64,000 bases of DNA from a bacterium (lineage in GTDB: Bacteria; Eisenbacteria; RBG-16-71-46; CAIMUX01): the NCBI GenBank assembly GCA_030431975.1, contig JAUIHP010000001.1, positions 331,597-395,596 on the forward strand. Reading direction: 5' to 3'. The position numbers were made by a program, and so were the translations under genes. Shown here one piece after another: positions 10,445-38,105 of the stretch; position 1 is the stretch's first letter; the number at the start of each line of letters is the position of its first letter. Under the pieces are notes generated by a model. The model searched no databases and was not told where the DNA came from. It saw only the letters and a program-made list of their open reading frames with translations.

Positions 10445-10463
10445 GAGGTGAGGTACCCCCGGT

Positions 10464-11717: not shown

Positions 11718-11930
11718 GGACTCTCCTCTAAGGAAGCGTTTTCGTTTCGCGTCCCGGGGCTGACCACGCCCTTCAGCCAAACCGGGAACCGCCTAACCCA
11801 TTGAAAAACGGCACGATAACAGACCCTCAGACGAAAAGCAATCCACCGCGTGGGCGGGCGATTCCATGACCCAAAGAACTCGTCGAGCCGTTACCATGTC
11901 CCACTCGGACTCAGTCGGAAAGGACACGCG

Positions 11931-21471: not shown

Positions 21472-21696
21472 TTTCTTTCCTCCGTTTTCGGGGCTCGGGG
21501 ACCCACCGATCAAGCGGGCTGGAGACGTCCCTTCATCTCCCACGAACCCTCGTACTCAACTTTGTCGTGATCGCTGCCTTTCCTGCCGCTTTCGCGGTGG
21601 CGAGTGCGAATCGCCTCGAGATGGTCTGCGGCAAGGGATCGCACCCAGGGGCTGCCCGGTCCCTCGCTCATTCTTTGGTTTCAAAGCTGCTACATC

Positions 21697-22635
21697 TCAG
21701 TTCTGCCAAATGGCATTCGACGGAACAACGACGTTGGTTTCGACGCCCTGTCCGCGGAACGCGTAGTGAAGCTCCAGATTCGAAGGCACTGGAACACCGA
21801 GTTCCCCGGCCGTAAAGTAACCGGAACTCCTCGCGGCCCGAAGAGCTGCCTGATCCAGCTCTTCATTGCCACAAGACTTCAAAAGCTTCAGCTCAAAGAG
21901 CTGGCCGCGCTCTCCGGCGCGAACATGCACGACGACGTCGTGATTCAGATCGTTGCCGGCGAGGCTGGTCGGAATACGCGGCGTGGCCTCCCGAACGGCC
22001 CGAGCGTCGGTCCGCGGCAGGCGTGGATGCTTTCCGGACTCAACCTCTTCGATGAAACGGGCGGTGGCCTTTTCCCGCGCCTCTTCCGAGCGGGCCATGA
22101 TGAACAACTCCGCCAGGTCCGCCTCGACTTCGCGCGTTTGCTCCCGTTCCTGTTCTCCGGCGATTCTGATCTGGTCCGTAATCTCGAAAGTGAAGACAGG
22201 CGGTTTGGGGCACGTCGGCCCTTTGCAGTAGTCGGTGGTCAGTTCCTGACCGTCGCGCAGGACGAGCAGCCGCATCCGAGGGATATAGAACTCGACCCCG
22301 ATCCAAGGAACCCAAAGCTCATTGCCGTTCGAATCAAACGCTTGGAGTCCATCCGGCCGGTAGATGTCACATTCCTCGGGAAGCACAACCCAGGAAGTTT
22401 CGGCGGGGCGGGTGCGGTAGTCGATAAATCCGATGAGCCAGGAAAGCTCGTCCGCAACATAGGCGGCGCCGCATTCATTGCAGTCCAAGCCGGCGTTCCC
22501 GGCGGCCCGTTCGGTTTGAACGTAACAATCCGGACAAACCCATGTCTCGGCCTGAACCGATCCGAAACCGACGAGCAAGAAGATGCCAACCCAAAGCCAG
22601 GCGCGCCCGTTCGGGAGCACACGCAGTGCGGTCAC
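21697..22635 (-). CDS. periplasmic protein with TonB C-terminal-like domain
   Basis: GTG 22635 six nt after AAGGAGGG; signal 'MTALRVLPNGRAWLWVGIFLLVGFGSVQA'; C-terminus 'VVVHVRAGERGQLFELKLLKSCGNEELDQAALRAARSSGYFTAGELGVPVPSNLELHYAF' matches TonB_C pattern. Confidence 0.55.
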   Translation of the reverse strand: MTALRVLPNGRAWLWVGIFLLVGFGSVQAETWVCPDCYVQTERAAGNAGLDCNECGAAYVADELSWLIGFIDYRTRPAETSWVVLPEECDIYRPDGLQAFDSNGNELWVPWIGVEFYIPRMRLLVLRDGQELTTDYCKGPTCPKPPVFTFEITDQIRIAGEQEREQTREVEADLAELFIMARSEEAREKATARFIEEVESGKHPRLPRTDARAVREATPRIPTSLAGNDLNHDVVVHVRAGERGQLFELKLLKSCGNEELDQAALRAARSSGYFTAGELGVPVPSNLELHYAFRGQGVETNVVVPSNAIWQN

Positions 22636-22924
22636 GAAGTCCCTCCTTCGCAATGTTTGTCCGTGAGTGACGGGCTCGGCGCACTCCGCTGATTCGGGAG
22701 TGCGAAGGCGAGTCAAAGGGATGCCTTGAGGCCCTCTTCACGAAACCCCGGCTGCCGTCGCGGCAGCATGTCCTGGGGAGCCGGCGCATGCCGGACTCCT
22801 TTTATTGTACACCGCGGATTGCGCTTTTGTCCGCCGCGAACCTGAGTTTCAGGGAGCCTCCCCACCACGACTAACACTTTGGGAATCAAGCGCTTACGTC
22901 TAGATATGCTGGATTCTGGCCGGT

Positions 22925-23345
22925 TTAGCGAATCAGAAATGACTCGGCTGGACTCTGGGCCCGAACGGAGTTGTCAGACGAGGACCGGAGCTCGACCTGC
23001 CAGAAGTATTTCCCCGGCTCGGTCGTGGGTGGAAGCTCGATCCAAGCTTGGTGGCCGTCAACCGTGGACTTTCCGTAAACCGCTCCCAGAGAGTCTGTTA
23101 CGGTGACCTGATACCGGACTTGGCCGGGGCTGGTGAGCCGGGCCGCCGTCAGGGAGTCGGCGTCCCAACGGAACCCGATCTTGGGAAGAACGAGAACATC
23201 GCCGCTGGCAGGTTCTAGGTTCGTGAAGACCTGGGTCGCCTCGAGGGAGGCGGGCTCTCCGCCGGCAACCGGTCTCGATTCCCCGCCGGTGTCCGCCTCA
23301 CCCTTATCGCCACCGCCACAGCCACCGAGAGCCAGGACAGCGACG
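22925..23345 (-). CDS. lipoprotein-like ORF with no canonical in-frame start codon (possible pseudogene or non-canonical start)
   Basis: Minus-strand frame reads '...RNRAFWACAFCTCVAVLALGGCGGGDKGEADTGG...YQVTVTDSLGAVYGKSTVDGHQAWIELPPTTEPGKYFWQVELRSS...FLIR*' (signal/lipobox + Ig/FN3-like body) but no ATG/GTG/TTG in frame back to stop at 23579-81; not in the supplied ORF track. Confidence 0.3.
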
Positions 23346-23361
23346 CAGGTGCAAAAGGCGC

Positions 23362-23490
23362 AGGCCCAAAAGGCACGGTTCCGGAAGGTGTCGGTCCGGA
23401 AGCCGCAGGCCCGGAGGGTGCGGGCCCAGAAACCGCAGGCCCGGGAAGCGCGGGCCCGGAAGGCGGGGCTCCGGAACTTGGGGATCCGGC
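23362..23490. repeat. 15-bp tandem repeat (~8.5 copies), consensus GGCCCGGAAGNNGCR
   Basis: ggcccaaaaggcacg/gttccggaaggtgtc/ggtccggaagccgca/ggcccggagggtgcg/ggcccagaaaccgca/ggcccgggaagcgcg/ggcccggaaggcggg/gctccggaacttggg. Confidence 0.85.
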
Positions 23491-23585
23491 GTCGGAGTGG
23501 ATAATCGGTTCGGGAGCTGATGGCGCGGTCTCCGGTTTTGCGTTCGAAACGGCAAACTAGGGGCGGAGAAGCGGCCTGTCAACGC

Positions 23586-24620
23586 TCAGGCGACCGCAAG
23601 GAAGTCGCGTCCCTCCCGCCAGCCTCGTCGCCGGAGCTCGGCACGGATCAGATCCCGGGCACCGGCTACGCCCACCGCGGCCAGAACCATCGGATGCGGA
23701 CCCGACGCCGGGCCGTCAGGGGACCCCACTTCTTCCAACCAGGACGACGCTTCGACGATGGGAGTGTCATGGGCGCGCCGACCGATCTTCTTCGGATCGA
23801 TATCGAGAAAGAGACGAACACGCGCCCCTTCGGCAAGAAAGGCCCGGGCGAAACGGCGGCCGTCCTTCCCCGCACCCCAGATGACGGTCTCTCTGTCTCC
23901 GAGATACCTCTTCAAGTGATGAACGCGGCAGGCCAGGAATCGTTCCGCTTCGTACTCCGGAAGAGTTCGCGACGCCCGACCGGGATCGTCGACCCATCGG
24001 TACAGGGGTTCGTCCACTTTGACCATCGAAACGCCGTGCCGTCTCAGTCGCAACCAAAGGTCGTAGTCCTCAGGCCACCCGCGATCCCGATAGCCTCCGA
24101 CTGCTTCAAAACAATGCCGCCTCAGAACGACCGTGGGGTGAGGGAGCGGCGATTCGACCCAGAGCCCGTTTGCGATCTCGTCCGGCTGAACACAACTGGA
24201 GACCCACTCGGCGTAGCGGCGTCCGCCGTCCGTCAGCGGTGATCCGTCGTGTTCGACTTGGCAGCTGACCAAACCAAGATCTGGGTCACGCTCGAGTCGG
24301 GCGAGCTGTTTCTCGAGACGCGTCGGCATGGAAACGTCGTCAGCGTCCTGTCTCGCGAGTAGATGGGTACGAGCCATAGCTGCGGCTTGGTTGAGAGCGG
24401 TCACGATTCCCAGCGGCTTCTGAGTGCACCCGCGAAACCTTCGGTCCGCCTCTTCGAAACGGCGAATGATGTCCGGCGTCTCGTCGGTCGAACCGTCGTC
24501 GACAATGCAGCATTCGAAGTCGGGGCGGGTTTGTGCCTGAAGCGATTGCAGCGCGGCGGTCAGAGTCTGGGCCCCGTTCCGAACGGGAAGGAGAATCGAG
24601 ACCGTGGGAGTCGGGCTCAC
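23586..24620 (-). CDS. glycosyltransferase family 2 with C-terminal extension
   Basis: 'SILLPVRNGAQTL...CCIVDDGSTDET', 'DADD' and 'WPEDYDLWLRL' GT2-A motifs. Confidence 0.8.
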   Translation of the reverse strand: MSPTPTVSILLPVRNGAQTLTAALQSLQAQTRPDFECCIVDDGSTDETPDIIRRFEEADRRFRGCTQKPLGIVTALNQAAAMARTHLLARQDADDVSMPTRLEKQLARLERDPDLGLVSCQVEHDGSPLTDGGRRYAEWVSSCVQPDEIANGLWVESPLPHPTVVLRRHCFEAVGGYRDRGWPEDYDLWLRLRRHGVSMVKVDEPLYRWVDDPGRASRTLPEYEAERFLACRVHHLKRYLGDRETVIWGAGKDGRRFARAFLAEGARVRLFLDIDPKKIGRRAHDTPIVEASSWLEEVGSPDGPASGPHPMVLAAVGVAGARDLIRAELRRRGWREGRDFLAVA

Positions 24621-24624
24621 CCGA

Positions 24625-26298
24625 TCACCGGGTCCCGGTTTGCGCGCCCAGCTGCTCCGGGACGGCGATATGTGGTTGTCGGGACTCGAAACTTGCCTTC
24701 AGTCTTTCGGCCTCCGTCTCTGCCAACGTGCCTTTCCCGCCGAAGACCGCTTGCGCAAGCTTCCTCGCAACGGGCAGCACCTGTTCCGGATCCTGTGCTC
24801 CGTCCATCCGACGGAGGACAAGGTCGTCGAGGTGTCTCGCGCCTTCTTCCGCCGCGATCTGCCGAAGATTGAGCGCGGCCGACGCTGGAGCCCGTTCCAG
24901 CTGCTCGACAAAGATTGCGAAACTCATCGGTCCGCGGGACGCAGGGCGTTTGCCGGATCCCAATGAACGCTTTCCCAAAACACGGTCACAGGTTGTGCGC
25001 GCAACTTCCGGAGCGGTCGTGTACTTGAGTCCGACGGAGGCGTAGAGCCCTTCGAGTTGTTTCACTTCGACCCAGACGTCGCGGTGCGGCATCTCCGGAT
25101 CGCTTTCGGATCGGCTGAGCAGTCGCCCGGCAGTCAGGCCAAGCCGGCGGCGCTGGTCCAACTGAAGACTGGGAACAAAACGCGAGACCGATTGAAGGAA
25201 GCGGTCCACGGAGTCCTGGGAAACAGGGGGCACGCCGGAGCACTCTATTGCCGCGTCCTTTGAAGAAGTGCTCCCACCGGTGGCTGCTGTTGCCGAGCCC
25301 TTTGAAGGCAAGCTCTCCCTTTCGATCTCGTGCACCGTGCCGACATGGGTCACGCCGTTTGCGCTCCACATGAATGCGTTCTGTCCATCACGCGCGGGCA
25401 GCGCGATTCCGTTCTCCCCGAAAATGTCTCCTTCGATGACGACGTTGTAGGCGCGCGAGGTGGGTAGAGACGGCAAGGCTTCGCCGAGTCCCCAGGCGGA
25501 GAGAAGTCGGGACGTTGCGGGCCCGGTTGTCATGACGACGCGCCGCCCTGACACCTGGTACTCCTGATCTGTCGGCGCATCACCGGCCGACGCATCACGA
25601 GTCGACGCATCACCAATCGACGCATCACCCGCCGACTCATCATCGGAGAGCGATCTAACACGAACTCCCTTCAGGTTTCCGGACGAGACCCAAGGTCCCT
25701 CGACGCTGGCGTAGTTGCAAACGTCGGCGCCACACGAAACCGCCCAGCGGAGCATTTCGATATGCAACCGTTGCTGCGAGGGCAACCAACCGTCATGCCA
25801 GGCGGCGGCGCCAACCCATCCGGATAGGAAAGGGCACTCTCGCTGCAGATCCGATTGGGAAAGAAGGCGTCCTCCTCCCAAGAGAGAGCGATGAGGACCG
25901 GCATCCCCGTTGAGCCGTCTTCCGAACTGACGATCCAGGAGAAACGCAGACCGAAAGACGAACGGCCGGCGTAGTCCTTTACCGTCCAAGGGCAGAAGAA
26001 AACGTCGTGTGCCCGTCAGTTCGGGAAAGTGCCCGAGGAACCAGGCGCGCGCACGAACGGATTCGCGGAACCGCTCCAGGTCGAACGACTGGAGATAGCG
26101 CAAACCGCCATGCAGAATGCGCAGGCTGTTGGACGAAGTCTCGGCGCCGAAGTCTCCCCGTTCGAGCAGCAGCACGGAATGGCCGCGTCGCGCCGCCTCA
26201 AGAGTCAGGCAGATGCCATGAATTCCGCCGCCCACGACGATGAGGTCGTACTGTTGCGCGACCGCCTCGTCAACGTTGCGCAGGAAGCGGCCGTTCAC
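24625..26298 (-). CDS. FAD-dependent oxidoreductase (GlpA/GlpD-like DAO family)
   Basis: Rossmann 'YDLIVVGGGIHG', 'LRILHGGLRYL' as in glycerol-3-phosphate dehydrogenase family; 557 aa with Ser/Asp/Ala-rich insert. Confidence 0.7.
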   Translation of the reverse strand: MNGRFLRNVDEAVAQQYDLIVVGGGIHGICLTLEAARRGHSVLLLERGDFGAETSSNSLRILHGGLRYLQSFDLERFRESVRARAWFLGHFPELTGTRRFLLPLDGKGLRRPFVFRSAFLLDRQFGRRLNGDAGPHRSLLGGGRLLSQSDLQRECPFLSGWVGAAAWHDGWLPSQQRLHIEMLRWAVSCGADVCNYASVEGPWVSSGNLKGVRVRSLSDDESAGDASIGDASTRDASAGDAPTDQEYQVSGRRVVMTTGPATSRLLSAWGLGEALPSLPTSRAYNVVIEGDIFGENGIALPARDGQNAFMWSANGVTHVGTVHEIERESLPSKGSATAATGGSTSSKDAAIECSGVPPVSQDSVDRFLQSVSRFVPSLQLDQRRRLGLTAGRLLSRSESDPEMPHRDVWVEVKQLEGLYASVGLKYTTAPEVARTTCDRVLGKRSLGSGKRPASRGPMSFAIFVEQLERAPASAALNLRQIAAEEGARHLDDLVLRRMDGAQDPEQVLPVARKLAQAVFGGKGTLAETEAERLKASFESRQPHIAVPEQLGAQTGTR

Positions 26299-27281
26299 GG
26301 TTTCTTTCCGAGTCGAAGATCGACCTGGTCGCGCGCGAAGTCGGCCCAGTTCGTTCGTTGTCCGAACACTTCTAGTTCCTTGGGCTGAGACTCTTCGTCT
26401 TCTGGCCCCGCGGCGGAATCACCCGACTGCAACTGACGGAGTTGCTGCACGAGGTCGGCGCCCGGCGCATCCCAGTTGGCGGGCGACTGCAAATAGAATC
26501 CGTAGCGGCCGGCACGCATCTCCCGACCGGGAAGCGGAAGCGGATCGCTGCCGGGCAGAAAAAGCAGCCCGAAACGGCGGGCAACTTCACGCGGCTCCAG
26601 CCCCGGCAACCCAGCGGCACGCCCGAAATTGTCCCCAATCGCCACAGGCGGACGGCTTCGGTCTTCGAGCAGAGTTTGCAGGACACGACCGCGTCGGCCC
26701 CACCACTTTCCGAAGGCCCAGGGCAAGACGGCGACTGCGTTGTGTTCATGAATCTCACGCACGGTGTCGATGAGACTACGCCCATCCGCGGGACGATGCG
26801 TGGAGAAGAGCGAAAGGACCTCTAGCCCTTCGGCAGAGACGGTTTGAAAACCGGAGGAGACGAGGATTGCCTCGCCCGACGAAACGGCTTCGGTTCGCTC
26901 CTTCACGGCCCCCGAATCAGCAAGGGATTCCGCTTCGGTCGCGCCGCCGCGACACAAAAGGAGCGAACCACGCTCGGCCAGCGGCACTGCCGACCAGCCA
27001 GGAATCTGCCGTGCACCCGACCGCAGTTCCTCGAAACACGAATGGCGCGCGTCTTCGGTTAGACAGAGCCCGAATCCGGGCTCCCCATTCGAGCCGGCAC
27101 GAAACGCGGGCGAACGTCTCACCGCCTCCAGCAGCTTGCCGAGATCGTGATGTCGGTAGAAGTGGACGTGCCCGTCGATGGGAAACCGCGAAGTCTTCGT
27201 CCCTCGGAACTCACTCGGCCTGGAAGACCCGGAGGCCTTTGACCCTTGAAACTCACTCGGCCTGGAAAACGGGGAAGTCAT
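26295..27281 (-). CDS. hypothetical protein (possible metal-dependent hydrolase; 'IDGHVHFY' motif)
   Basis: ATGA overlap with the upstream GT2 stop (27278-27281) suggests coupling; N-terminal ~30-bp triplicated DNA repeat gives 'SRPSEFQGSKASGS/SRPSEFRGTKTS'. Confidence 0.45.
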   Translation of the reverse strand: MTSPFSRPSEFQGSKASGSSRPSEFRGTKTSRFPIDGHVHFYRHHDLGKLLEAVRRSPAFRAGSNGEPGFGLCLTEDARHSCFEELRSGARQIPGWSAVPLAERGSLLLCRGGATEAESLADSGAVKERTEAVSSGEAILVSSGFQTVSAEGLEVLSLFSTHRPADGRSLIDTVREIHEHNAVAVLPWAFGKWWGRRGRVLQTLLEDRSRPPVAIGDNFGRAAGLPGLEPREVARRFGLLFLPGSDPLPLPGREMRAGRYGFYLQSPANWDAPGADLVQQLRQLQSGDSAAGPEDEESQPKELEVFGQRTNWADFARDQVDLRLGKKP

Positions 27282-28342
27282 CGTCCCTCGAAGCTCAACT
27301 GGCCGAGGATTCGACGAGGCCTTCCTCCCCGGATGAAGACGTCGCGATCTTCTCCGCCCTGCGTGACCGTCGCCATCATCCGCGCCGTCGTTCGATCACG
27401 GCTGGGGGCAAGGAAGCGAATCCGTTCCGCAAAGAGACCGTAGCCGATGATGGAAACAGCCGTCTGGGAAAACAGCACGGCGCTGGCCACCGGAACGAGC
27501 AGGGGACCGGTGAAGTTTCCGACCAGGATGTGCCCAACCCAGATCAACGAGATCGCTGCAAGTCCGACGAAGGGAATGGCGAAGAGCAGGAACCAGATGA
27601 AAAGCTTGTGCGAATAGCGCGTCACCATGAAGAGCGTGGTGAGGTCGGCAAGCACCCGCAGAACTCGGCCGAGTCCATACTTCGACTCGCCGTAGATGCG
27701 CGCCCTATGGTGTGTCTCCACTTCGGCGACACGGGCTCCACCCATTTGCGCCAGCGGGACGATGAACCGATGAAACTCTGAGTACAACGAGACCGAACGA
27801 AGCACCTCGCCCCGGTAGGCTTTGAGAGCGCAACCATTGTCATGAATGGTCAGGCCGGTCAGCTGCCGCGAGATCCAGTTGGCAACCACCGAAGGGAAAC
27901 GTCGCGACACGAGCTTGTCCTGTCGGTTGCGTCGCCAACCGGAAACGATCTCGTAACCTTCGTCGAGTTTGGCCAGCAGCTTCGGAATGTCTGCCGGATC
28001 GTTTTGAAGGTCGCCGTCCAATGTGACGACGACGTCGCCGCAGCAGACATCGAACCCGGCCATGAGAGCCGCAGTTTGTCCACGATTGACGCTCAGCCGG
28101 ACACCGACCAGTCGCTCGTACCGATCCTGAAGCGAACGCAGCTTGTTCCACGTGTCGTCGGCCGACCCATCATCGACGATGATGATCTCCGTCTCCTCCT
28201 CCATCAAGGAGAGGACTTTGTCGATCTGCTCGACCAGTTCCGGAACCGACTCGACTTCGTTGTAGACGGGAACGACGACGGAGACGGAAACCTCCTCGCC
28301 TCCCTGCGGAACGCAAAGCGTCTGTCGTCGGTTGGACAGCAT
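27278..28342 (-). CDS. GT2 polyprenyl-phosphate glycosyltransferase (ArnC/GtrB/DPM1-like) with two C-terminal TM helices
   Basis: 'VSVVVPVYNE', 'IIVDDGSADDT', 'DGDLQNDP', 'GCALKAYR' motifs; C-terminal TM pair; start ATG 28342 'MLSNRRQTL'. Confidence 0.8.
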   Translation of the reverse strand: MLSNRRQTLCVPQGGEEVSVSVVVPVYNEVESVPELVEQIDKVLSLMEEETEIIIVDDGSADDTWNKLRSLQDRYERLVGVRLSVNRGQTAALMAGFDVCCGDVVVTLDGDLQNDPADIPKLLAKLDEGYEIVSGWRRNRQDKLVSRRFPSVVANWISRQLTGLTIHDNGCALKAYRGEVLRSVSLYSEFHRFIVPLAQMGGARVAEVETHHRARIYGESKYGLGRVLRVLADLTTLFMVTRYSHKLFIWFLLFAIPFVGLAAISLIWVGHILVGNFTGPLLVPVASAVLFSQTAVSIIGYGLFAERIRFLAPSRDRTTARMMATVTQGGEDRDVFIRGGRPRRILGQLSFEGR

Positions 28343-28412
28343 CACTCGCAAGTCCCTCTTCCGACCGTGGAGATTCGAAGGGCGTAGCACGCGTTCGTCC
28401 TTCGCTCGGTCG

Positions 28413-29540
28413 TCAGCTTCGAGCCGAAGGCATGCGCTTCGACTCGGCGTCCGTGTCGGTATCGGTGTCTGCGTCCGTATCGAACCCTGACGCAGCATTC
28501 CACGCATCGCCCGACTCGTCGGCGAGACCCAGCGTCTCGGTCTCCCCTCCCCGGAACCACTCGGAAATGCGGTAGTTCGACTGGTCCCGGAAATGAAGGT
28601 AGAGCAGCAGCTCTCCAAGGAAGCCGAGAATGATGACCTGAACTCCCGCCGTAATCAGCAGAAGGGCCAGGAGCAGAAGTGGGCGCTCGGCCAACGCCTG
28701 GCCCAAAACCATCCGTTGGTAGGCCAGGACCAAACTCATCACGGCCCCGGACAAAAGCAGAATGAGTCCCAAAGCTCCGAAGGGGCGCAGAGGCTTCTGC
28801 GTAAAACGAACGAGGTAGGCCAGCGTCATCACGTCGAGAGCGCGGCGGCCGAAGGTTGCCGGGCCGAAGAGCCTCAGGTTGGGAGTGGACGTGTCCGGAT
28901 CGACTTCGACCTGTCCGACCCGAAAGCCTTCCCGCGCGATGAGAATCGGGAGGAAGAGCTGGTTCTGTCCGTACCCGGAAAGAGCGGGGACGACGTAGCT
29001 GCGCATCCCGTGAAGTCCGCAGGCCAGATCGCGGAAGTGGATTCCGGTCGTCATCGCGATGAGCCCGTTGAACACCTTTCGGGCCATCCGATTGAAGCCG
29101 GACCGTGCGCCGCCACGGCGGGTGGCGATGACGTACTCCTCGTGGTCCAAACGCTCGGCGACGGTATCGATCCCTTCGGGAGTCACCTGCGGATAGGCCG
29201 GGTAGGTCACGATGCGCTGGCCACGCGCGACGGAGACTCCGGCCCGGATCGTGGCCACCTGGCCGAGAGCAGCGTGCAGTCGGACCAGCCGGACCCAGCT
29301 GAGATCCTGTGTCCGCTCCAGGAACCGGGCATGCAGTCCGCCAAGATGACCGTCGAGAGCGACGACGAGTTCGTGATCGTGCGAACGGGGCTCCAGGAAC
29401 TCCAGGAGCTGCTCGAGAATCGCCGGTGTGTGAACCACGTTCTCGGAACAGAAGAGTACGACCGAAACCGCCGGCGTGCCGGGTCTGGGAGATCGAGCGT
29501 CGGGGCTCGGGAGGGTCTTCCACTTCGTTTCGGTTGCCAT
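28413..29540 (-). CDS. GT2-like glycosyltransferase with C-terminal TM region
   Basis: 'VSVVLFCSEN...HELVVALDGH' GT2-like N-terminal half, C-terminal TM helices 'LGLILLLSGAVMSLVLAY...LLLALLLITAGVQVIILGFLGELL', acidic 'DTDADTDTDTDAE' tail. Confidence 0.6.
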   Translation of the reverse strand: MATETKWKTLPSPDARSPRPGTPAVSVVLFCSENVVHTPAILEQLLEFLEPRSHDHELVVALDGHLGGLHARFLERTQDLSWVRLVRLHAALGQVATIRAGVSVARGQRIVTYPAYPQVTPEGIDTVAERLDHEEYVIATRRGGARSGFNRMARKVFNGLIAMTTGIHFRDLACGLHGMRSYVVPALSGYGQNQLFLPILIAREGFRVGQVEVDPDTSTPNLRLFGPATFGRRALDVMTLAYLVRFTQKPLRPFGALGLILLLSGAVMSLVLAYQRMVLGQALAERPLLLLALLLITAGVQVIILGFLGELLLYLHFRDQSNYRISEWFRGGETETLGLADESGDAWNAASGFDTDADTDTDTDAESKRMPSARS

Positions 29541-29761
29541 GATCCGTCTACGGCGTTGCAGTCCTGGGTTCTACACGATCATCGGACCTTCGGCCCTGCT
29601 TCGGAACGGGAAGCCACTCCAAACGACAAAGATCGGACAGTCCCCCGGGATTCCATCCGGGGGAGGTCCTGTATAGCCGACAACTTCTCGTTTGATTGCC
29701 CTCGGGGTGGGTAACCCGTCCTCCGCAAGGGCTTGTCCCGGCCTCGATTCCGCCGGGACGT

Positions 29762-29920
29762 CTAAAAGAGTGCGTAAATGAACGGCGCCAGAGCCGTGTT
29801 CTGCGTCAGGACGAGAAGCCCGCCGAAGAGCACCATGAAGAGAATGATGGGCAGCAGCCACCACTTCTTCCGTACCCGCATGAAACTCCAGATCTCGCCA
29901 AAGATGGTCAGCTTGCTCAT
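29762..29920 (-). CDS. DUF5989-family small membrane protein (52 aa)
   Basis: 'MSKLTIFGEIWSFMRVRKKWWLLPIILFMVLFGGLLVLTQNTALAPFIYALF*' is the family's signature; below the 60-aa ORF-track cutoff. Confidence 0.55.
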   Translation of the reverse strand: MSKLTIFGEIWSFMRVRKKWWLLPIILFMVLFGGLLVLTQNTALAPFIYALF

Positions 29921-30321
29921 CGAACCCTCGCGTCAGCATTGGTCGCATTGGTGATCTCAAACCCGAGATCTGGAGTATACCGCACGCACTTCAGATCCCG
30001 ACCGGGCCAATTGCACGAGCCGCCGGGCAGTTTGCAGGAGCTATGGAACCGAGGCGGCAAGCCGAACGCCGGGAAGGTGGAATCAGAGAGGAGGGGATAG
30101 TCGATCGATCAGAGCCCCCTGACCGTGACGCCCCCCTCCTCCCCTGGAGAAAGATGGGTACGAGTCAGCGGATTCTTCTGGCCTCGGGAGGGTGGGTCCC
30201 GAAGCGCCCCATGCCGCGCAACCCGTCTTTGGAATTGTCGCCCGAAATCGCCGTTTGATACAACGGAAAGCGGTCGTTGTGACCCGAGCGATGGGGGTTT
30301 TCGAGCGTTGGGCCCGACCGT

Positions 30322-31341
30322 TCATCGCTCTTCTTTGGGGCCGGCCTCTCTAGAGTAGATCTCCCGCACGACTTCCTCGATGTCCCGATCACTGACGTGG
30401 AGGTCAGTCACGGGGGCTTTGGCCATGACGAGCTGTAGGAGTTCCGGCGCCGATGTCCGGGCGGGATCGAACTCCAGACGCATCTTCTCGGGAGATCGTT
30501 CGAGCATCGTGACGCCGCTCGGAAGATCGATGACGGCCTCTTCTTTTTCTGACGAACTCGGGTCGATCTGGAGACTGAGAATCCGTCGATGGCCGAAGAT
30601 CCGGCGCAGCGACTCGACCGTCCCGTCATGCAGGATCTGGCCGTGATCGATGACGATGACACGGCTGCACAGCCGCTCGATGTCATCGAGGTCGTGCGAA
30701 GTGAGGACGACCGTGGTTCCGGTCTCCGCGTTGACCTGTTGCAGAAAGTCGCGCACTTCCTTCTTTGCGAGCACATCGAGTCCGATGGTCGGCTCATCGA
30801 GAAAGAGGAGTTCGGGGCTGTGTAGAACGGCGGCGGCGATCTCACATCGCATTCGTTGCCCGAGACTGAGTTTTCGCACCGGAACGTCGAGAAACGACTC
30901 GAGATCGAGTCGCCCCGACAGGTCCTCGAAACGCTGACGAAACGCATCCGGCGCGATGCGGTAAACCCGGGATAAGAGGGAGAACGACTCGACGACCGGC
31001 AGGTCCCACCAAAGCTGAGTCCGTTGGCCGAAGACGACTCCCATCTGAAACGCGTTCTCGGTTCGGTGTCGTTGCGGATCTCGTCCCAACACCGAAAGTT
31101 CTCCTGAAGTCGGCCGCAGGATACCGACCAGCGACTTCACCGTGGTCGACTTGCCGGCGCCGTTTGGACCGACATACCCAACGAACTCACCGGGCTTGAT
31201 ATCGAACGAAATGTTGTCGACCGCCCGAACGGTCCGGGCTTCGTTGGAGAAGAGATTGCGGGCAGCGCCGACCAGTCCGCGTCGATGACCGAGGACGCGG
31301 AACTCTTTGGTCAGTCCACGCACTTTGACGATGGGACGCAT
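30322..31341 (-). CDS. ABC transporter ATP-binding protein (ABC-2 exporter type)
   Basis: Walker A 'GPNGAGKSTT', signature 'LSLGQRMR', Walker B 'LLFLDEPT', H-loop 'TSHD'; start ATG 31341. Confidence 0.85.
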   Translation of the reverse strand: MRPIVKVRGLTKEFRVLGHRRGLVGAARNLFSNEARTVRAVDNISFDIKPGEFVGYVGPNGAGKSTTVKSLVGILRPTSGELSVLGRDPQRHRTENAFQMGVVFGQRTQLWWDLPVVESFSLLSRVYRIAPDAFRQRFEDLSGRLDLESFLDVPVRKLSLGQRMRCEIAAAVLHSPELLFLDEPTIGLDVLAKKEVRDFLQQVNAETGTTVVLTSHDLDDIERLCSRVIVIDHGQILHDGTVESLRRIFGHRRILSLQIDPSSSEKEEAVIDLPSGVTMLERSPEKMRLEFDPARTSAPELLQLVMAKAPVTDLHVSDRDIEEVVREIYSREAGPKEER

Positions 31342-31346
31342 CGTGA

Positions 31347-32093
31347 TCAGCTCCCGGTACTTTCGTAGTGACGAACACCGATCCGCCAGAAGCCGTATCC
31401 GACACCGGCGAACATGGCGGCAACGAACGGCGCCAACCATGGGAAGAACGCCGGAAACCCGAGAACGTCGGGCTTCCCGAGCACGGCAAGAGCGGGATAG
31501 TAGCTGACAAACCCGACAGGGATGACAAAGAGAAAGAGCGTTCGGATCCACGGCCGATAGATGTTGATCGGATACTGCGCCATCTCGACTCCGCCGTAGG
31601 TAAAGGCGTTGAACATCTCCGTACTCTCGACGGTCCAGAAACACTGGGCGGCGGCTCCGACGAAGAGCGCCGCGAAGACGAGGATTCCGCTTACCAGACC
31701 GATGAGCACGAACGCCGCCGAGGCCGTGGTCCACGTCACGTCCAGGTTGACCAGGGCCAACACGAGGGCGCCGATGCCCTGAATCGTTCGTCCCAGGTAG
31801 AACAGTTTGATGTGCCGACCGAGCACCTGAAGAAGCGCAGGCACCGGACGAAGGAGAAGTCCGTCGAAACGTCCGCTCCGCACGAGCTCCGGCATCTCTT
31901 TGAGCCCGGAGGTCAGAAGTTCTGCGATTCCCAGTGACGAGCTGGCCGTTCCGTAGAGGTAGACGACTTCCCACCGGGTCCAGCCGCCGATCGCGTTCAC
32001 ATGCTGAAAGAGAAAGAAGACGGCGACGAGTTCGAGGCCGGTGATGAGCATGCGCCCGACAACCTCGAGGAGGAAGGAGCGGCGATAGACCAT
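31347..32093 (-). CDS. ABC-2 family transporter permease
   Basis: Six predicted TM segments, ABC-2 permease-like; start ATG 32093 'MVYRRSFLLEVVGRML'. Confidence 0.65.
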   Translation of the reverse strand: MVYRRSFLLEVVGRMLITGLELVAVFFLFQHVNAIGGWTRWEVVYLYGTASSSLGIAELLTSGLKEMPELVRSGRFDGLLLRPVPALLQVLGRHIKLFYLGRTIQGIGALVLALVNLDVTWTTASAAFVLIGLVSGILVFAALFVGAAAQCFWTVESTEMFNAFTYGGVEMAQYPINIYRPWIRTLFLFVIPVGFVSYYPALAVLGKPDVLGFPAFFPWLAPFVAAMFAGVGYGFWRIGVRHYESTGS

Positions 32094-32235
32094 TTGCTCC
32101 CGGACAGAAGCCGAGACGAGGCGGCCGAAAACATCGAGCCTATGCCCGAGCCTGTCGCCGAGCTCAAGGCTGTGCCTGTCGCGCCCGGAGGCGGACGCGT
32201 TGCTGGCCGGCTTGATGGCGTCCCGCTCCCCCAAC

Positions 32236-33069
32236 TCACCCTCCCTGGATGATCAGCACTTTGGTCCCTCGCCGAAACATCCACTCGGTGAGGATGAGCA
32301 GGAGAAGCAGCCAGACAAGTTGGGCGCCAATCGCGGTCCACACGCTCCCGGACACCTCCCCGATGTAGATCCGCGTCGGCGTGTAGAGCGAGTGCTCGAA
32401 GGGAAGAAACGCTGATATCCGTCGGGCCCATTCGGGGAAGAACGCGATCGGCAGTAGCAGTCCGGAAAAAAGATTGGCGAAGCCGGAGACCAGGAAACGA
32501 ACTCCGCGCTCCGACCCGAACCAGAAGCTGCTGAGCTCCACGAGAATCAGGATCAGGTTGCCCAGTGCCGCAGCCAGTGCGATCGAGATTAGGAAGGGCA
32601 GCAGTGCCCAGGGGTCGGCCGGGGGTTTCAGGAAACCGAAGAGCGCCCCTACCGCCCCCACCGGTATCGCCCGCACCAGCACGTAGTAGGCGCTGATGCC
32701 GAGGCGCTGGCTCAGCTGCACCGCGACGTAGGGAACCGGACGAATCAGGTCCATGGCGACCTGGCCGGTCCGTACGGACTCCGCGATTCCGATCCGCCCC
32801 CACTGCGGACTGACCATGAGGAGGGCCTGGGTCACGGTGACGTAAGTCGTCACTTGTCCGACGTCGTAACCGGCGATCTCGTCCCGAAACTCGTAGCAGG
32901 CCATCAGGGCATAGGTCCGGAAGAGGAGAAAGAAGACGTTCGTGAACAGTCCCGACCAGTTGGCAAACCGGTAGGCCAGCTGCCGTTTGAAGGCGACGGC
33001 GCCGAATGCCAGGCTGGCGTCGAGCCAGGCCCATCGCGCTCCGAGACCGTTCACGGCGCCCCCCTTCAA
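32236..33069 (-). CDS. ABC-2 family transporter permease (second subunit)
   Basis: Multiple TM helices, 'FKRQLAYRFANWSGLF' N-terminal region typical of ABC-2 permeases; start uncertain (TTG 33069 or GTG 33054); the track ORF extends to 33342. Confidence 0.6.
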   Translation of the reverse strand: MKGGAVNGLGARWAWLDASLAFGAVAFKRQLAYRFANWSGLFTNVFFLLFRTYALMACYEFRDEIAGYDVGQVTTYVTVTQALLMVSPQWGRIGIAESVRTGQVAMDLIRPVPYVAVQLSQRLGISAYYVLVRAIPVGAVGALFGFLKPPADPWALLPFLISIALAAALGNLILILVELSSFWFGSERGVRFLVSGFANLFSGLLLPIAFFPEWARRISAFLPFEHSLYTPTRIYIGEVSGSVWTAIGAQLVWLLLLLILTEWMFRRGTKVLIIQGG

Positions 33070-33351
33070 ATCCAGTAACGGGTTGTCCTTCAGTGGTTTC
33101 GGGCCGTCTCCGCGCGGGTCCCCGGACTTTGGCCGCTGGGGAGCATAGCCGATTCTGAAGCCGAGGGCTCCACCCGGCCAGTCCCGGGAGGTGATTGGCA
33201 GCACAGGGCCCGGTGGTGCCGGCGTCCCCACCGGCATCGCGGGCGTTGGACGAGCGACGCCCCCATCTGCCCAGGATGAAGTTTCCGTGACGGGATCCGG
33301 CCGGAACGTGCGCATCCCTGAGTGAAGAGCCCAACGAGACACTCAGCAGGA

Positions 33352-33954
33352 ATGAAGGACCGGAGGCCCCAAATGCAGACCCTCGACAACAACTCGATCA
33401 TCTGTGGAATCGGTTCCGGAGCGCACGTCAATGGAGAGGCACGGGCACGCGCCTTTGCCCGGATCGAAGCGGAAATGGACGGAGAGCGGCTGTCCGGAAG
33501 AGGCAGCACGTCACGCATCATGTGGACGGCCGCCCTCTTCTTGCTGGTCGCCGGCATGACCCTTCTCCTGACCGGCGCACCCGCGCTGGACTTCGCCCAG
33601 ATTCTCGGAGACGAAACGACCTTGGTTCGCCGGGCGGGACTCCCATTCGCCGATTCCGGCCTGGTCGTCTTCCTGCTGGCTTCGGGTGTGGCCTACATCG
33701 GCCTGATTGGTGCGCTATCACTGCGACTGCCGATGTCAGCGCGGAGAGGAATCATCCGCGCCGCGGTCGGCAAAGCCGCATGGTTCCACATCATCGTCCT
33801 CCCATTGCTCGCCGCCGGTCGGGAAATCAGCGCACCTGCAGTCGCCGCGGTTTTCGCGATTCTCGTCCTGGTAGACCACATCGTTCTGCCGATCGGCAAC
33901 ACGTCGGGGTCCGAGGCGGGTATGGGCGGACGGAAGGTCCACTCCGCGCAGTAG
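33352..33954 (+). CDS. hypothetical membrane protein
   Basis: Four hydrophobic segments; divergent from ABC operon; start ambiguous (ATG 33352 or 33373). Confidence 0.35.
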   Translation: MKDRRPQMQTLDNNSIICGIGSGAHVNGEARARAFARIEAEMDGERLSGRGSTSRIMWTAALFLLVAGMTLLLTGAPALDFAQILGDETTLVRRAGLPFADSGLVVFLLASGVAYIGLIGALSLRLPMSARRGIIRAAVGKAAWFHIIVLPLLAAGREISAPAVAAVFAILVLVDHIVLPIGNTSGSEAGMGGRKVHSAQ

Positions 33955-34144
33955 AGGACTCACTTCCGCGACGGAGGCTCAACCCTGGGACGCGGGCTCT
34001 TCGTTGCATACCGAACCCTTGCGTGAGAATGTTTCGGGACGAAATCAGCGACGGCATGGGCCACCTCTACTCCTGAGTTTGAGCTCGATGCACCCAAGCA
34101 CAGCCAGGCAGTAGCGCGGCCGACCCGGCAACCAGGACCGACGG

Positions 34145-34888
34145 ATGACCGAAACGTTTCCCGAGTACCCGAAGACACGGCCTCCTCTCCCGGAGGCCAT
34201 TCAGCGTATCTACAAAGCCCACTACCAGGAGAACCGTTCCGGCGGCTCGCCGGCGTCTTCCATGGCTCAACGCATGGAGGCCTGGTTGCATCACCAGGTC
34301 GCGGCGGACCTGCAGACGGTGGCCGACGCGTCGCAACTACGCACCTTGGAAGTCGGGGCGGGTAATCTCAATCAGTTGGCATACGAGCCGCCGTCGTCGG
34401 CCTACGACATCATCGAACCCTTTGACGAGTTGTACGCCGGGTCGAGTCTGTTGAGCCGCGTTCGTTCCGTTTTCCGCGACATTCGGGAGGTCCCCGAGGA
34501 CGCCCGCTACGACCGCATCACTTCGGTGGCGACCTTCGAGCACATCTGCGACCTGCCCGTTGTCGTTGCCCGTGCAGGATTGCTGCTCGAAGAAGGCGGG
34601 ACGCTCCGCACCTCGATTCCCAGTGAAGGCACGTTCCTTTGGACACTGGGTTGGCAACTGACGACCGGACTGGAATTCCGCGTCCGACACGGACTCGACT
34701 ACGGAACTTTGATGCGCCACGAGCATGTGAACAACGCCGCGGAGATCGAAAGAGTGCTCGACCATTTCTTTCGTTCCCGGCGCTGCCGCGTCTTCGGCCT
34801 CAGTCGCGGGATCTCGCTCTACCGGTTCTACGAGCATTCCGATCCGGACCGGGATCGCTGCCGCACCTACCTGGAATCACTCGCGTGA
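34145..34888 (+). CDS. class I SAM-dependent methyltransferase
   Basis: Motif I 'LEVGAGNLNQ', post-I acidic 'YDIIEP', motif II 'ITSVATFEH'. Confidence 0.65.
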   Translation: MTETFPEYPKTRPPLPEAIQRIYKAHYQENRSGGSPASSMAQRMEAWLHHQVAADLQTVADASQLRTLEVGAGNLNQLAYEPPSSAYDIIEPFDELYAGSSLLSRVRSVFRDIREVPEDARYDRITSVATFEHICDLPVVVARAGLLLEEGGTLRTSIPSEGTFLWTLGWQLTTGLEFRVRHGLDYGTLMRHEHVNNAAEIERVLDHFFRSRRCRVFGLSRGISLYRFYEHSDPDRDRCRTYLESLA

Positions 34889-37686: not shown

Positions 37687-38105
37687 AAAGCCTACGGAGC
37701 TATCTTCCTTCCGCCAGTCGTAGGTTAGGAACCCGGCGTCCGCAATCTTCCGTCCACAACCTGCCCCTTTGGCCGAGGGTCCGCCGCGCCTCGGCATAGA
37801 CTCCCGCACAAACTGCGCATCAGCAGGCGCCAGCGCCGCGCCTGACGTTCGGCCATGGCTGACCTCGTGACGGGCGCGCACACCTGTGACCTTGCCGCCG
37901 CAGCTTTGGCGTTCCCACGGCGGGTGTCCCGGACCTGACCACTCTTCAGTCGCCGGTAAGTCCGGGTTTTCGCCAGAGACAGGCTCCTTTACGACAAGCA
38001 CTTAGCACTGCGGGACCCGTTCCTTGCCCGGTTGTCTGGTTGTGCGGCACGACTCCTGCTAGATCCAAGGGTGAACCGGAACCGGCACCGAAGGAGGTGA
38101 ACGCA

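What the first reader, a model, noticed from the sequence alone, without database searches (positions are those of the whole stretch)
23586..33069. Co-directional ~9.5 kb cluster: three GT2 enzymes, an FAD-dependent GlpD-like oxidoreductase, a 'IDGHVHF' hypothetical, DUF5989 and an ABC-2 exporter: candidate uncharacterised lipid-linked glycan pathway
Eleven genes on the minus strand have short or overlapping junctions (for example ATGA at 27278). The composition combines two polyprenyl-phosphate-type GT2s with C-terminal TM helices (ArnC/GtrB-like), a soluble-type GT2, an FAD oxidoreductase of the glycerol-3-phosphate-dehydrogenase fold, and an ABC-2 ATPase with two permeases. That suggests synthesis, modification and export of a lipid-linked sugar or glycolipid. 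The presence of DUF5989 is notable because that family usually sits beside SxtJ or carbamoyltransferase genes. I cannot assign a known pathway such as Ara4N or O-antigen to this combination.
Basis: inference. Interest (0 to 1): 0.5.

Follow-up and report, generated by a model that had tools for sequence, protein, structure and literature searches.

The report
Glycan-modification operon beside unrelated ABC exporter
The interval holds a five-gene sugar-modification operon (a lipid-carrier glycosyltransferase with a catalytically dead twin, an undescribed metal-enzyme family, an altered glycerol-phosphate-dehydrogenase relative and a soluble glycosyltransferase) that is a trimmed version of an uncharacterised module found in hundreds of bacterial species, while the neighbouring ABC transporter is probably just a neighbour.

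Summary
There are nine genes, not eleven, and they form three units rather than one tight operon.

- **ABC trio (30322-33315):** two DUF990 permeases plus an ATPase, matching the Ethyl Viologen Exporter family. Close orthologues elsewhere are stand-alone trios in unrelated contexts.
- **Orphan DUF5989 gene (29762-29920):** it is flanked by 401-bp and 221-bp gaps.
- **Five-gene operon (23586-29540):** the junctions run from a 22-bp gap to 4-bp overlaps. It encodes a DXD-less ArnC paralogue, an ArnC-like GT2, the 'IDGHVHF' protein, a GlpD/GlpO paralogue and a soluble GT2.

The 'IDGHVHF' protein has a PHP-superfamily fold and no Pfam or NCBIfam model. Its family is in 579 species-level genomes and about 2,600 clusters at 50% identity. 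The GlpD paralogue has Asn in place of the His of the GlpD 'KGVHLV' motif.

The PHP-like and GlpD-like genes co-occur in 71 of 85 loci across many phyla, and once as a single fused ORF. They usually sit with GT4, SDR, AsnB-type amidotransferase, methyl- and acetyltransferase genes, ArnC pairs and GT-C genes, inside polysaccharide loci.

No characterised operon matches. The chemistry remains inferred. Verdict: an uncharacterised variant of lipid-linked glycan modification, of moderate interest.

The parts
32236..33315 (-). ABC-2 permease 1 (DUF990/ABC2_membrane_6). The start is uncertain: 33315 by the gene caller, possibly near 33069 because homologues are about 266 aa.
   Evidence: Pfam PF06182 E 7.9e-21. 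Gene call on the identical contig. 52-57% identity to the Eisenbacteria copies.
31347..32234 (-). ABC-2 permease 2 (DUF990/ABC2_membrane_6).
   Evidence: Pfam PF06182 E 3.5e-50. Orthologues at 52-55% identity in Planctomycetes, Myxococcota and one unnamed contig are stand-alone trios.
30322..31341 (-). ABC ATPase, DrrA-like.
   Evidence: Pfam ABC_tran E 1.4e-27. NCBIfam drrA subfamily E 4.4e-61, below its cut-off.
29921..30321 (.). 401-bp non-coding gap between the ABC operon and DUF5989.
   Evidence: The ORFs here lack a coding GC pattern and are not conserved. No Rfam hit. In L012 the equivalent gap holds an opposite-strand 634-aa gene.
29762..29920 (-). DUF5989, a 52-aa single-pass membrane protein without its usual partners.
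   Evidence: Pfam PF19451 E 4.4e-24. GC3 0.83. 83-90% identity among Eisenbacteria. The canonical context carbamoyltransferase-SxtJ-DUF5989 is absent here.
29541..29761 (.). 221-bp gap between DUF5989 and the operon, with two G+C-rich hairpins.
   Evidence: Sequence read directly. RNA fold z-score -1.95.
28413..29540 (-). ArnC-like paralogue lacking the DXD motif (YPAYPQ replaces LDGDLQ; ALDG replaces DDGS), with C-terminal hydrophobic segments. Presumed non-catalytic partner.
   Evidence: No Pfam hit. NCBIfam ArnC model E 5.5e-24 over residues 25-319. Motif alignment across phyla. Hydropathy.
27278..28390 (-). ArnC/GtrB-type polyprenyl-phosphate glycosyltransferase (GT2) with intact DDGS and DGDLQNDP motifs and two hydrophobic C-terminal segments. 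The start lies at 28390 or 28339.
   Evidence: Pfam GT2 E 8.5e-31. NCBIfam ArnC E 6.8e-56, 190 bits against a cut-off of 529..
26295..27281 (-). 'IDGHVHF' protein, a member of an undescribed PHP-superfamily family.
24625..26298 (-). GlpD/GlpO paralogue (FAD) with an altered substrate pocket.
   Evidence: Pfam DAO E 3.9e-26. Family profile against PDB: GlpD 3da1 E 2.3e-92 over the full length. HGGLRYL and the GxK(Y/F)TT Lys are kept; the His of 'KGVHLV' is Asn; the Arg of 'AGLRPL' is mostly lost.
23586..24620 (-). Soluble-type GT2 with a C-terminal extension of about 100 aa (weak NeuD-N-terminal-like match).
   Evidence: Pfam GT2 E 1.3e-27. NCBIfam TIGR03570 residues 245-334, E 8.8e-4. A related GT2 sits directly upstream of the DAO-PHP fusion ORF in L068.

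Best explanation
**Architecture (shown).** The interval is three adjacent units, not one pathway.
1. An EVE-family (DUF990) ABC-2 exporter trio that is self-contained.
2. An orphan DUF5989 gene that travels with unit 3.
3. A five-gene operon that is a pared-down, Eisenbacteria-specific version of a widespread, uncharacterised glycan-modification module. The module's conserved core is a PHP-like metalloenzyme, a GlpD paralogue and a soluble glycosyltransferase. An ArnC-type branch is often attached.

**Proposed working (inferred).**
- At the cytoplasmic face, the ArnC-like GT2 loads a sugar from a nucleotide donor onto undecaprenyl phosphate. It is probably complexed with its conserved DXD-less paralogue.
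- The FAD-dependent GlpD paralogue oxidises a secondary alcohol next to a phosphate ester. That P-O-C-CH(OH) arrangement occurs in glycerol-3-phosphate and also at C2 of a polyprenyl-phospho-sugar, so the logic resembles DprE1.
- The PHP-like enzyme then processes the phosphate-bearing or keto intermediate.
- The soluble GT2 adds or uses a second sugar.
- The product is flipped and transferred to an envelope glycan by proteins encoded elsewhere. No GT-C or flippase gene lies in the window.

**Status of each step.** Shown: gene identities, fold assignments, the operon split and the cross-phylum linkage. Inferred: substrate, reaction order and final acceptor.
For: - **Nine genes and junctions:**
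- **Conserved block in other Eisenbacteria genomes:**
- **PHP-like/GlpD-like linkage:** found together in 71 of 85 loci, and in 39 of 44 loci with full flanks. The median spacing is about 1 kb, and about ten pairs are 3-19 bp apart. One locus has a single DAO-PHP fusion ORF.
- **Fusions to a methyltransferase:** PHP-methyltransferase fusions occur, and the methyltransferase partner is confirmed.
- **Module neighbours:** GT4, SDR, AsnB-type amidotransferase and hexapeptide acetyltransferase; LPG_synthase_TM, PMT_2 GT-C and carbamoyltransferase; Bac_transf.
- **ArnC pairs:** tandem active plus 'LPAYxQ' pairs occur in more than ten loci from several phyla.
- **PHP fold:** supported by two methods.
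- **GlpD homology:** full length, with active-site changes.
- **ABC trio:** stand-alone elsewhere, and interrupted from the rest in L012.
Against: - No biochemical data exist for any of the five proteins.
- The ArnC pair accompanies the PHP/GlpD core in only about 40% of complete loci. The GlpD paralogue's substrate may therefore not be the ArnC product.
- The SDR that a DprE1/E2-like epimerisation would need is absent from the window.
- The nearest PHP structures include an oxidase (PsfC) as well as phosphoesterases, so the chemistry is ambiguous.
- The ABC trio lies next to the operon in every Eisenbacteria genome sampled, so a functional link cannot be excluded.
- Transcription units are inferred from gaps only. 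The terminator and promoter scans were uninformative.
Confidence: 0.5

Rival explanations
1. All nine genes form one pathway: the GT2s, oxidoreductase and PHP-like enzyme build a lipid-linked sugar or glycolipid, and the ABC-2 system exports it with help from DUF5989.
For: - ABC trio, DUF5989 and the operon are co-directional and adjacent in every Eisenbacteria genome examined, at 36-90% identity.
- ABC-2 exporters are a known route for lipid-linked glycans (established knowledge).
Against: - The permeases are PF06182/EVE type, not Wzm/TagG type.
- Orthologous trios stand alone in other phyla.
- About 75 non-Eisenbacteria loci carry the module without this ABC system.
- There is a 401-bp gap, and an opposite-strand gene is inserted at that point in L012.
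- General synteny of the flanks makes adjacency weak evidence.
Confidence: 0.2
2. The PHP-like enzyme, GlpD paralogue and soluble GT act on a soluble phosphorylated polyol (glycerol-3-phosphate or inositol-phosphate type). This would be a glycosyltransferase-then-phosphatase route to a glycoside head group or solute. The ArnC pair would be an independent co-located branch.
For: - The core triad (PHP-like, GlpD-like, GT4 or GT2) is much more constant than the ArnC pair.
- The PHP-like gene directly precedes a GT4 gene in most loci.
- That GT4 shows weak similarity to MshA, which glycosylates inositol-3-phosphate.
- The GlpD phosphate-region motifs HGGLRYL and GxK(Y/F)TT are retained.
Against: - The surrounding genes are typical of polymer or lipid-linked assembly: Bac_transf, flippase-like proteins, GT-C, and sulfo-, pyruvyl- and acetyltransferases.
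- The His of the GlpD 'KGVHLV' motif is replaced.
- In the window the ArnC pair is translationally coupled to the PHP-like gene through the ATGA overlap.
Confidence: 0.15
3. The PHP-like protein is an oxidative metalloenzyme like PsfC rather than a hydrolase. Together with the FAD enzyme it would carry out a two-step oxidation, such as an oxidative decarboxylation or C-C cleavage of a sugar acid, to make an unusual substituent.
For: - The canonical His-rich PHP ligand set is reduced to HxH plus carboxylates.
- The protein is tightly paired with, and once fused to, an oxidoreductase.
Against: - Identity to PsfC is only 16%.
- The phosphoesterases TM0559 and EndoQ score almost as well.
- No phosphonate genes are nearby.
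Confidence: 0.1

Closest known systems
Arn (4-amino-arabinose) pathway: ArnC plus ArnD acting on Und-P-sugar, then ArnE/F and ArnT
   Same: - A GT2 with a C-terminal membrane anchor matches ArnC over its full length.
- It is followed in the same operon by enzymes that could modify the lipid-linked sugar.
- In other phyla the ArnC-like pair is accompanied by ArnT-like GT-C (PMT_2) genes.
   Different: - No ArnA, B, D, T, E or F equivalents are present.
- The ArnC match is 190 bits against a 529-bit cut-off.
- A DXD-less ArnC paralogue is a constant partner.
- The modifying enzymes here are a GlpD paralogue and a PHP-like protein.
DprE1/DprE2 epimerisation of decaprenyl-phospho-ribose (mycobacteria)
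   Same: By analogy only: a flavoenzyme oxidises the hydroxyl adjacent to the phosphate-bearing carbon of a polyprenyl-phospho-sugar. An SDR partner is present in 26 of 44 complete module loci.
   Different: - DprE1 has a VAO-type fold, not the GlpD/DAO fold (established knowledge).
- No SDR is in this window.
- The reaction has not been tested.
GlpD/GlpO glycerol-3-phosphate dehydrogenase/oxidase
   Same: Full-length homology including the C-terminal domain (E 2.3e-92 to 3da1). The HGGLRYL and GxK(Y/F)TT motifs are kept.
   Different: - Far below the NCBIfam cut-offs (89 against 360 bits).
- The His of the 'KGVHLV' motif is Asn in at least 90% of members, and the Arg of 'AGLRPL' is mostly lost.
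- Always encoded in glycan loci rather than with glpK or glpF.
PHP superfamily (TM0559 phosphoesterase, PsfC, EndoQ, RNase AM)
   Different: - No hit to any Pfam family, including the PHP model.
- The other canonical His ligands are absent.
- The invariant PWxxGKW, R197 and GDNxGR motifs are specific to this family.
Ethyl Viologen Exporter family, TCDB 3.A.1.141 (EvrABC of Synechocystis)
   Same: One ATPase plus two DUF990/PF06182 permeases (PMC5417439). JGI names relatives 'viologen exporter family'.
   Different: Direct similarity to EvrABC was not measured here. The physiological substrate of the family is unknown.
Carbamoyltransferase-SxtJ-SxtK/DUF5989 trio (saxitoxin cluster and many bacteria)
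   Same: The DUF5989 protein is 65-75% identical to copies that sit in that trio.
   Different: Carbamoyltransferase and SxtJ are absent from the window and from the related Eisenbacteria loci. That SxtK equals DUF5989 rests on my own knowledge and was not tested.

Membership tests
ArnC/GtrB-type polyprenyl-phosphate GT2 (gene 27278-28390) | GT-A domain with intact DXD and DDGS motifs. | tested here: met
   Pfam GT2 E 8.5e-31. IIVDDGSAD and TLDGDLQNDP motifs.
ArnC/GtrB-type polyprenyl-phosphate GT2 (gene 27278-28390) | C-terminal transmembrane hairpin. | tested here: met
   Hydropathy segments at residues 260-278 and 288-306. This is a crude scale, not a dedicated predictor.
ArnC/GtrB-type polyprenyl-phosphate GT2 (gene 27278-28390) | Orthology to ArnC itself (NCBIfam equivalog cut-off). 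| tested here: not met
   189.6 bits against a cut-off of 529. Membership is at family level only.
ArnC/GtrB-type polyprenyl-phosphate GT2 (gene 28413-29540) | Catalytic DXD motif. | tested here: not met
   YPAYPQ replaces LDGDLQ. The same 'LPAYxQ' variant is conserved across phyla.
Arn (Ara4N) pathway | ArnA, ArnB, ArnD, ArnT and ArnE/F present alongside ArnC. | tested here: not met
   None appear among the Pfam and NCBIfam hits of the nine genes. No PMT_2-type GT-C is in the window.
Wzm/Wzt or TagG/TagH glycan ABC-2 exporters | Permease of the Wzm/TagG (PF01061) type. | tested here: not met
   Both permeases hit PF06182, and perm1 has one weak extra hit to PF12698. PF01061 is not reported. 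That Wzm/TagG belong to PF01061 is my own knowledge.
Ethyl Viologen Exporter (EVE/DUF990) family, TCDB 3.A.1.141 | One ATPase plus two DUF990 (PF06182) permeases. | tested here: met
   PF06182 E 3.5e-50 and 7.9e-21, with the ATPase adjacent. Family definition from PMC5417439.
Ethyl Viologen Exporter (EVE/DUF990) family, TCDB 3.A.1.141 | Export of viologens or another defined substrate. | not testable with these tools
   Requires a transport or resistance assay.
PHP superfamily | Distorted (beta/alpha)7 barrel fold. | tested here: met
PHP superfamily | Full set of His/Asp metal ligands, and a match to the Pfam PHP model. | tested here: not met
   No Pfam hit. Only D36, H38 and H40 and the Asp of GSD are kept; the other invariant residues are E154, K192 and D217.
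GlpD/GlpO | Full-length homology including the C-terminal domain. | tested here: met
   Family profile against 3da1 E 2.3e-92, aligned over residues 13-538.
GlpD/GlpO | Conserved His of the 'KGVHLV' motif, and the curated equivalog score. | tested here: not met
   Asn285 aligns to that His. 89 bits against a cut-off of 360. That this His is catalytic is recalled from memory and was not tested.
DUF5989 (PF19451) | Match above the Pfam gathering score. | tested here: met
   84.7 bits against a cut-off of 27.
DUF5989 (PF19451) | Usual neighbourhood: carbamoyltransferase and SxtJ immediately upstream. | tested here: not met
   Present in L087-L090. Absent from the window and from L002, L008 and L012.

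The most novel reading that the evidence does not exclude
The PHP-like protein and the GlpD paralogue together form a previously unrecognised two-enzyme system. It would remodel a phosphate-linked sugar, for example by oxidising C2 of a polyprenyl-phospho-sugar and then processing it in a metal-dependent step. It would work alongside a heteromeric ArnC-type synthase made of one active and one dead subunit. The system would generate an unknown envelope-glycan substituent in more than 500 bacterial species across at least ten phyla.
Probability: 0.2. Interest if true: 0.7.

Novelty: new variant of a known kind. Interest (0 to 1): 0.45.

Why it matters
If the inferred function holds, three things follow.

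- **A missing family gets defined.** This PHP-superfamily family has about 2,600 clusters at 50% identity in 579 species-level genomes, and no database currently models it.
- **A new role for a familiar enzyme.** A GlpD paralogue would gain a role in glycan biosynthesis.
- **A new kind of partner.** A conserved pseudo-glycosyltransferase would be shown to accompany ArnC-type enzymes.

All three are recurrent 'hypothetical' components of polysaccharide loci in cyanobacteria, Gemmatimonadota, Proteobacteria, Planctomycetota and others. Characterising one example would improve annotation of many genomes and might reveal a new envelope-glycan modification.

The finding also carries a practical warning. 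Co-directional adjacency in a syntenic lineage, as with the ABC trio here, is not evidence of shared function.

Tried and rejected
- **Rfam scan of 22000-35000 at E <= 1:** nothing found, so no riboswitch or RNA lies in the two gaps.
- **Promoter and terminator scan:** no promoter-like site. Terminator-like sites were not convincingly above the shuffled expectation (16 against 9.8 ± 3.1), and none sat at gene ends.
- **RNA fold of the 221-bp gap:** z-score only -1.95.
- **Sequence search of the PHP-like family against PDB:** no hit even at E <= 10. Only fold comparison worked.
- **afdb50 fold library:** unavailable.
- **tblastn of the window and the Eisenbacteria loci:**
  - Carbamoyltransferase and SxtJ queries found nothing.
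  - GT-C, LPG_synthase_TM, SDR, GT4, AsnB and hexapeptide-transferase queries found nothing in the window.
rejected.
- **Literature:**
  - No paper mentions DUF5989.
  - None describes a dead ArnC partner.
  - None describes this gene combination.
- **Source organism:** the cluster look-up returned no name. Eisenbacteria is inferred from the closest named relatives.
- **Clustering artefact corrected:** a second apparent 'PHP' paralogue in many loci turned out to be a SAM methyltransferase. It had been linked through PHP-methyltransferase fusion proteins.

Full report
**Observation**

The interval 23586-33315 carries nine minus-strand genes, not eleven. A gene caller on the identical public contig (Logan ERR3428548) calls these:
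- two permeases, of 359 and 295 aa
- an ATPase, 339 aa
- a 52-aa protein
- five proteins of 375, 370, 328, 557 and 344 aa

- ORFs 30083-30325 and 29917-30060 lack the coding GC-by-position pattern and have no relatives in the sister genomes.
- ORF 29571-29960 only shadows the DUF5989 gene in another frame.

Junctions are tight within two groups only:
- The permease, permease and ATPase genes are separated by 1 and 5 bp.
- DUF5989 is isolated by gaps of 401 bp and 221 bp.

Base composition is uniform at about 62% G+C across the window.

**Gene identities**

| Gene | Coordinates | Identity | Key evidence |
|---|---|---|---|
| Permeases | 31347-33315 | PF06182 (ABC2_membrane_6, formerly DUF990) | E 7.9e-21 and 3.5e-50 |
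| ATPase | 30322-31341 | DrrA-like | |
| DUF5989 | 29762-29920 | PF19451, one hydrophobic segment | E 4.4e-24 |
| ArnC-like GT2 | 27278-28390 | full-length ArnC match, below the cut-off | E 6.8e-56, 190 against 529 bits |
| DXD-less paralogue | 28413-29540 | full-length ArnC match, no Pfam hit | E 5.5e-24 |
| Soluble GT2 | 23586-24620 | GT2 plus a ~100-aa C-terminal extension | weak NeuD-N-terminal-like match |

[quoted passage not shown] JGI names relatives 'viologen exporter family'.
- The ArnC-like GT2 keeps the DDGS and DGDLQNDP motifs and has two hydrophobic C-terminal segments.
- In the paralogue, DDGS becomes ALDG and LDGDLQ becomes YPAYPQ.

**The 'IDGHVHF' protein**

- It has no Pfam, NCBIfam or PDB sequence match.
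- A 59-sequence alignment shows invariant D36, H38, H40, E154, a PWxxGKW motif, R197, a GDNxGR motif and a GSD motif.
- The AlphaFold model is confident, with pLDDT 85.9 and pTM 0.83.
- PsfC is a dinuclear non-heme iron enzyme of fosfomycin biosynthesis (bioRxiv 10.64898/2026.01.15.699783). The other matches are phosphoesterases. The fold therefore does not settle the chemistry.
- A profile search of 1.84 billion representative proteins finds 2,656 clusters at 50% identity, of which 2,153 score below 1e-30. This is a sharply bounded family.
- It occurs in 579 species-level genomes. These include Eisenbacteria, Gemmatimonadota, Gamma- and Alphaproteobacteria, Cyanobacteria, Planctomycetota, Acidobacteriota, Desulfobacterota, Ignavibacteria and Verrucomicrobiota.

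**The FAD enzyme**

- Alone, it matches GlpD and GlpO only over its first ~200 residues.
- A profile of 33 family members matches GlpD 3da1 at E 2.3e-92 over the full length, GlpO 2rgh at 3.1e-88 and E. coli GlpD 2qcu at 4.8e-65.
- It is therefore a GlpD/GlpO paralogue.
- The HGGLRYL motif and the Lys of GxK(Y/F)TT are kept.
- The His of the GlpD 'KGVHLV' motif aligns to a nearly invariant Asn. The Arg of 'AGLRPL' is mostly Leu.
- That these GlpD residues bind substrate is my recollection, not something tested here.

**Comparative genomics**

*Within Eisenbacteria.* The same nine genes in the same order occur in three further Eisenbacteria genomes: L002 (also sampled as L003 and L007), L008 and L012. 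In L012 the contig ends inside permease 2, so permease 1 is not seen.

| Protein group | Identity to the window copies |
|---|---|
| PHP-like and GlpD-like | 36-41% |
| GT2 and ABC proteins | 50-68% |
| DUF5989 | 83-90% |

*Across phyla.* Of the 85 loci that carry the PHP-like gene, the GlpD paralogue is within 10 kb in 71. In the 44 loci with at least 8 kb on both sides, co-occurrence is as follows:

| Neighbour | Loci out of 44 |
|---|---|
| GlpD paralogue | 39 |
| Soluble GT (GT4 or the GT2 type seen here) | 34 |
| SDR | 26 |
| AsnB-type amidotransferase | 20 |
| ArnC-like GT2 | 18 |
| Hexapeptide acetyltransferase | 16 |
| LPG_synthase_TM protein | 12 |

- About ten PHP-like/GlpD-like pairs lie within 3-19 bp of each other.
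- In one Gemmatimonadetes locus (L068) the two are a single 854-aa ORF.
- The PHP-like domain is also often fused to a SAM methyltransferase.
- Other recurrent neighbours:
  - PMT_2-type GT-C transferases next to the ArnC pairs
  - carbamoyltransferases, in five loci
  - Bac_transf phosphoglycosyltransferases and MsbA/PglK-like ABC proteins
  - sulfotransferases, pyruvyl transferases and deacetylases

The module therefore lives in polysaccharide-type loci.

*The ArnC pair.* A tandem of one motif-intact and one 'LPAYxQ' copy recurs in more than ten loci from several phyla. The DXD-less copy is therefore an old, conserved partner rather than a decaying gene.

**Why the ABC trio is probably separate**

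- Orthologues of permease 2 at 52-55% identity in a Planctomycetes genome, a Myxococcota genome and a third, unnamed contig sit in the same three-gene unit. Their neighbours are unrelated: LigD and ribosomal protein genes, peptide deformylase, and a PfkB kinase.
- No non-Eisenbacteria locus with the module has this transporter.
- In L012 a 634-aa opposite-strand ORF with subtilase motifs lies between the ATPase and DUF5989, while DUF5989 stays 209 bp from the operon.
- Flanking genes are syntenic between the window and L002 on both sides: an OMP beta-barrel gene upstream, and a Pro-rich ORF, a TonB_C protein, PBP5 and an aminotransferase downstream. Conserved adjacency may therefore be lineage inertia.

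**DUF5989**

- Its canonical setting is carbamoyltransferase, then SxtJ, then DUF5989. This is seen in Ignavibacteria loci whose copies are 71% identical to the window's.
- A review of the saxitoxin cluster calls the small ORFs next to the carbamoyltransferase uncharacterised (PMC2885083).
- Neither partner occurs in the 64-kb window or in the sister loci.
- Why the orphan copy is so strongly conserved next to the operon is unexplained.
- It is suggestive that carbamoyltransferases appear inside the wider module in other phyla.

**Mechanism**

- *Shown:* gene identities, folds, the operon split and the cross-phylum linkage.
- *Inferred:*
  - The ArnC-like enzyme, probably with its dead paralogue, makes an Und-P-sugar.
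  - The GlpD paralogue oxidises a hydroxyl adjacent to a phosphate ester. This arrangement is shared by glycerol-3-phosphate and by C2 of a polyprenyl-phospho-sugar.
  - The PHP-like enzyme processes that intermediate.
  - The soluble GT2 takes the place that GT4 holds in most relatives.
  - Flipping and final transfer must be encoded elsewhere, because the window has no GT-C or flippase-like gene.
- *Caveats:* the ArnC pair is present in only about 40% of complete loci, and no SDR is present here. A soluble phospho-polyol substrate therefore remains a serious rival.

**Novelty and verdict**

The system is a new variant of a known kind, lipid-linked glycan modification. It contains an unmodelled PHP-superfamily family, a neofunctionalised GlpD paralogue and a conserved pseudo-ArnC. 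Interest is moderate: it is a good lead for glycobiology and annotation, but not a surprise at the level of principle.

Noticed in passing
window 22925-23578 (-): A Pro-rich ORF that the gene caller missed on the identical contig. It is conserved in the sister Eisenbacteria loci (tblastn about 1e-14). It carries 15/30-nt tandem repeats at 23344-23462 and lies just upstream of a TonB_C-domain protein (21697-22716).
   Followed up: partly
window 25571-25646, 28444-28482 and 26880-26950; protein inserts in three genes: In-frame short tandem repeats encode low-complexity inserts that homologues lack. They are DAO residues 215-237 and 334-356, PHP-like residues 112-135, and the DTDADTDTDTD tail of the pseudo-ArnC. 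The PHP-like protein also has a duplicated SRPSEF(Q/R)G N-terminus.
   Followed up: partly
L012 1171-3075 (-): A 634-aa ORF with subtilase motifs (HGTHVAG, GTSMASP) is inserted on the opposite strand between the ABC ATPase and DUF5989 in another Eisenbacteria genome.
   Followed up: partly
L068 8402-10966 (+): A single 854-aa ORF fuses the GlpD-like domain (N-terminal) to the PHP-like domain (C-terminal) in a Gemmatimonadetes MAG. A GT2 related to the window's soluble GT2 lies directly upstream.
   Followed up: yes
loci L010, L018, L027, L034, L035, L066 and proteins P0006, P0009, P0047, P0099: The PHP-like domain is frequently fused to a SAM-dependent methyltransferase, giving proteins of 520-560 aa. 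In other loci the methyltransferase is a separate adjacent gene.
   Followed up: partly
window 20083-21543 (-): A 486-aa protein with a weak Radical_SAM match, which by eye resembles lysine 2,3-aminomutase (KamA). It lies downstream of the cluster and is not part of the conserved block.
   Followed up: no
window 9275-11792 (-) and 37890-38954 (+), compared with L002: There is long-range synteny with another Eisenbacteria genome: PBP5-type carboxypeptidase plus aminotransferase on one side, and an OMP beta-barrel protein on the other. About 10 kb of extra genes (SNF2 helicase, FG-GAP protein) is inserted in the window.
   Followed up: partly
window 29541-29761 (-): Two perfect G+C-rich hairpins (GTCCCGGC...GCCGGGAC and CCCCCGG...CCGGGGG) lie just after the DUF5989 stop codon. 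They have no T tract, so they may be a terminator or attenuator in a high-GC organism.
   Followed up: partly
L087/L088 7224-8193: In Ignavibacteria the canonical carbamoyltransferase-SxtJ-DUF5989 trio is followed by a 52-aa Lys-rich ORF and a 272-aa GT2. This is another link between DUF5989 and glycosyltransferases.
   Followed up: no
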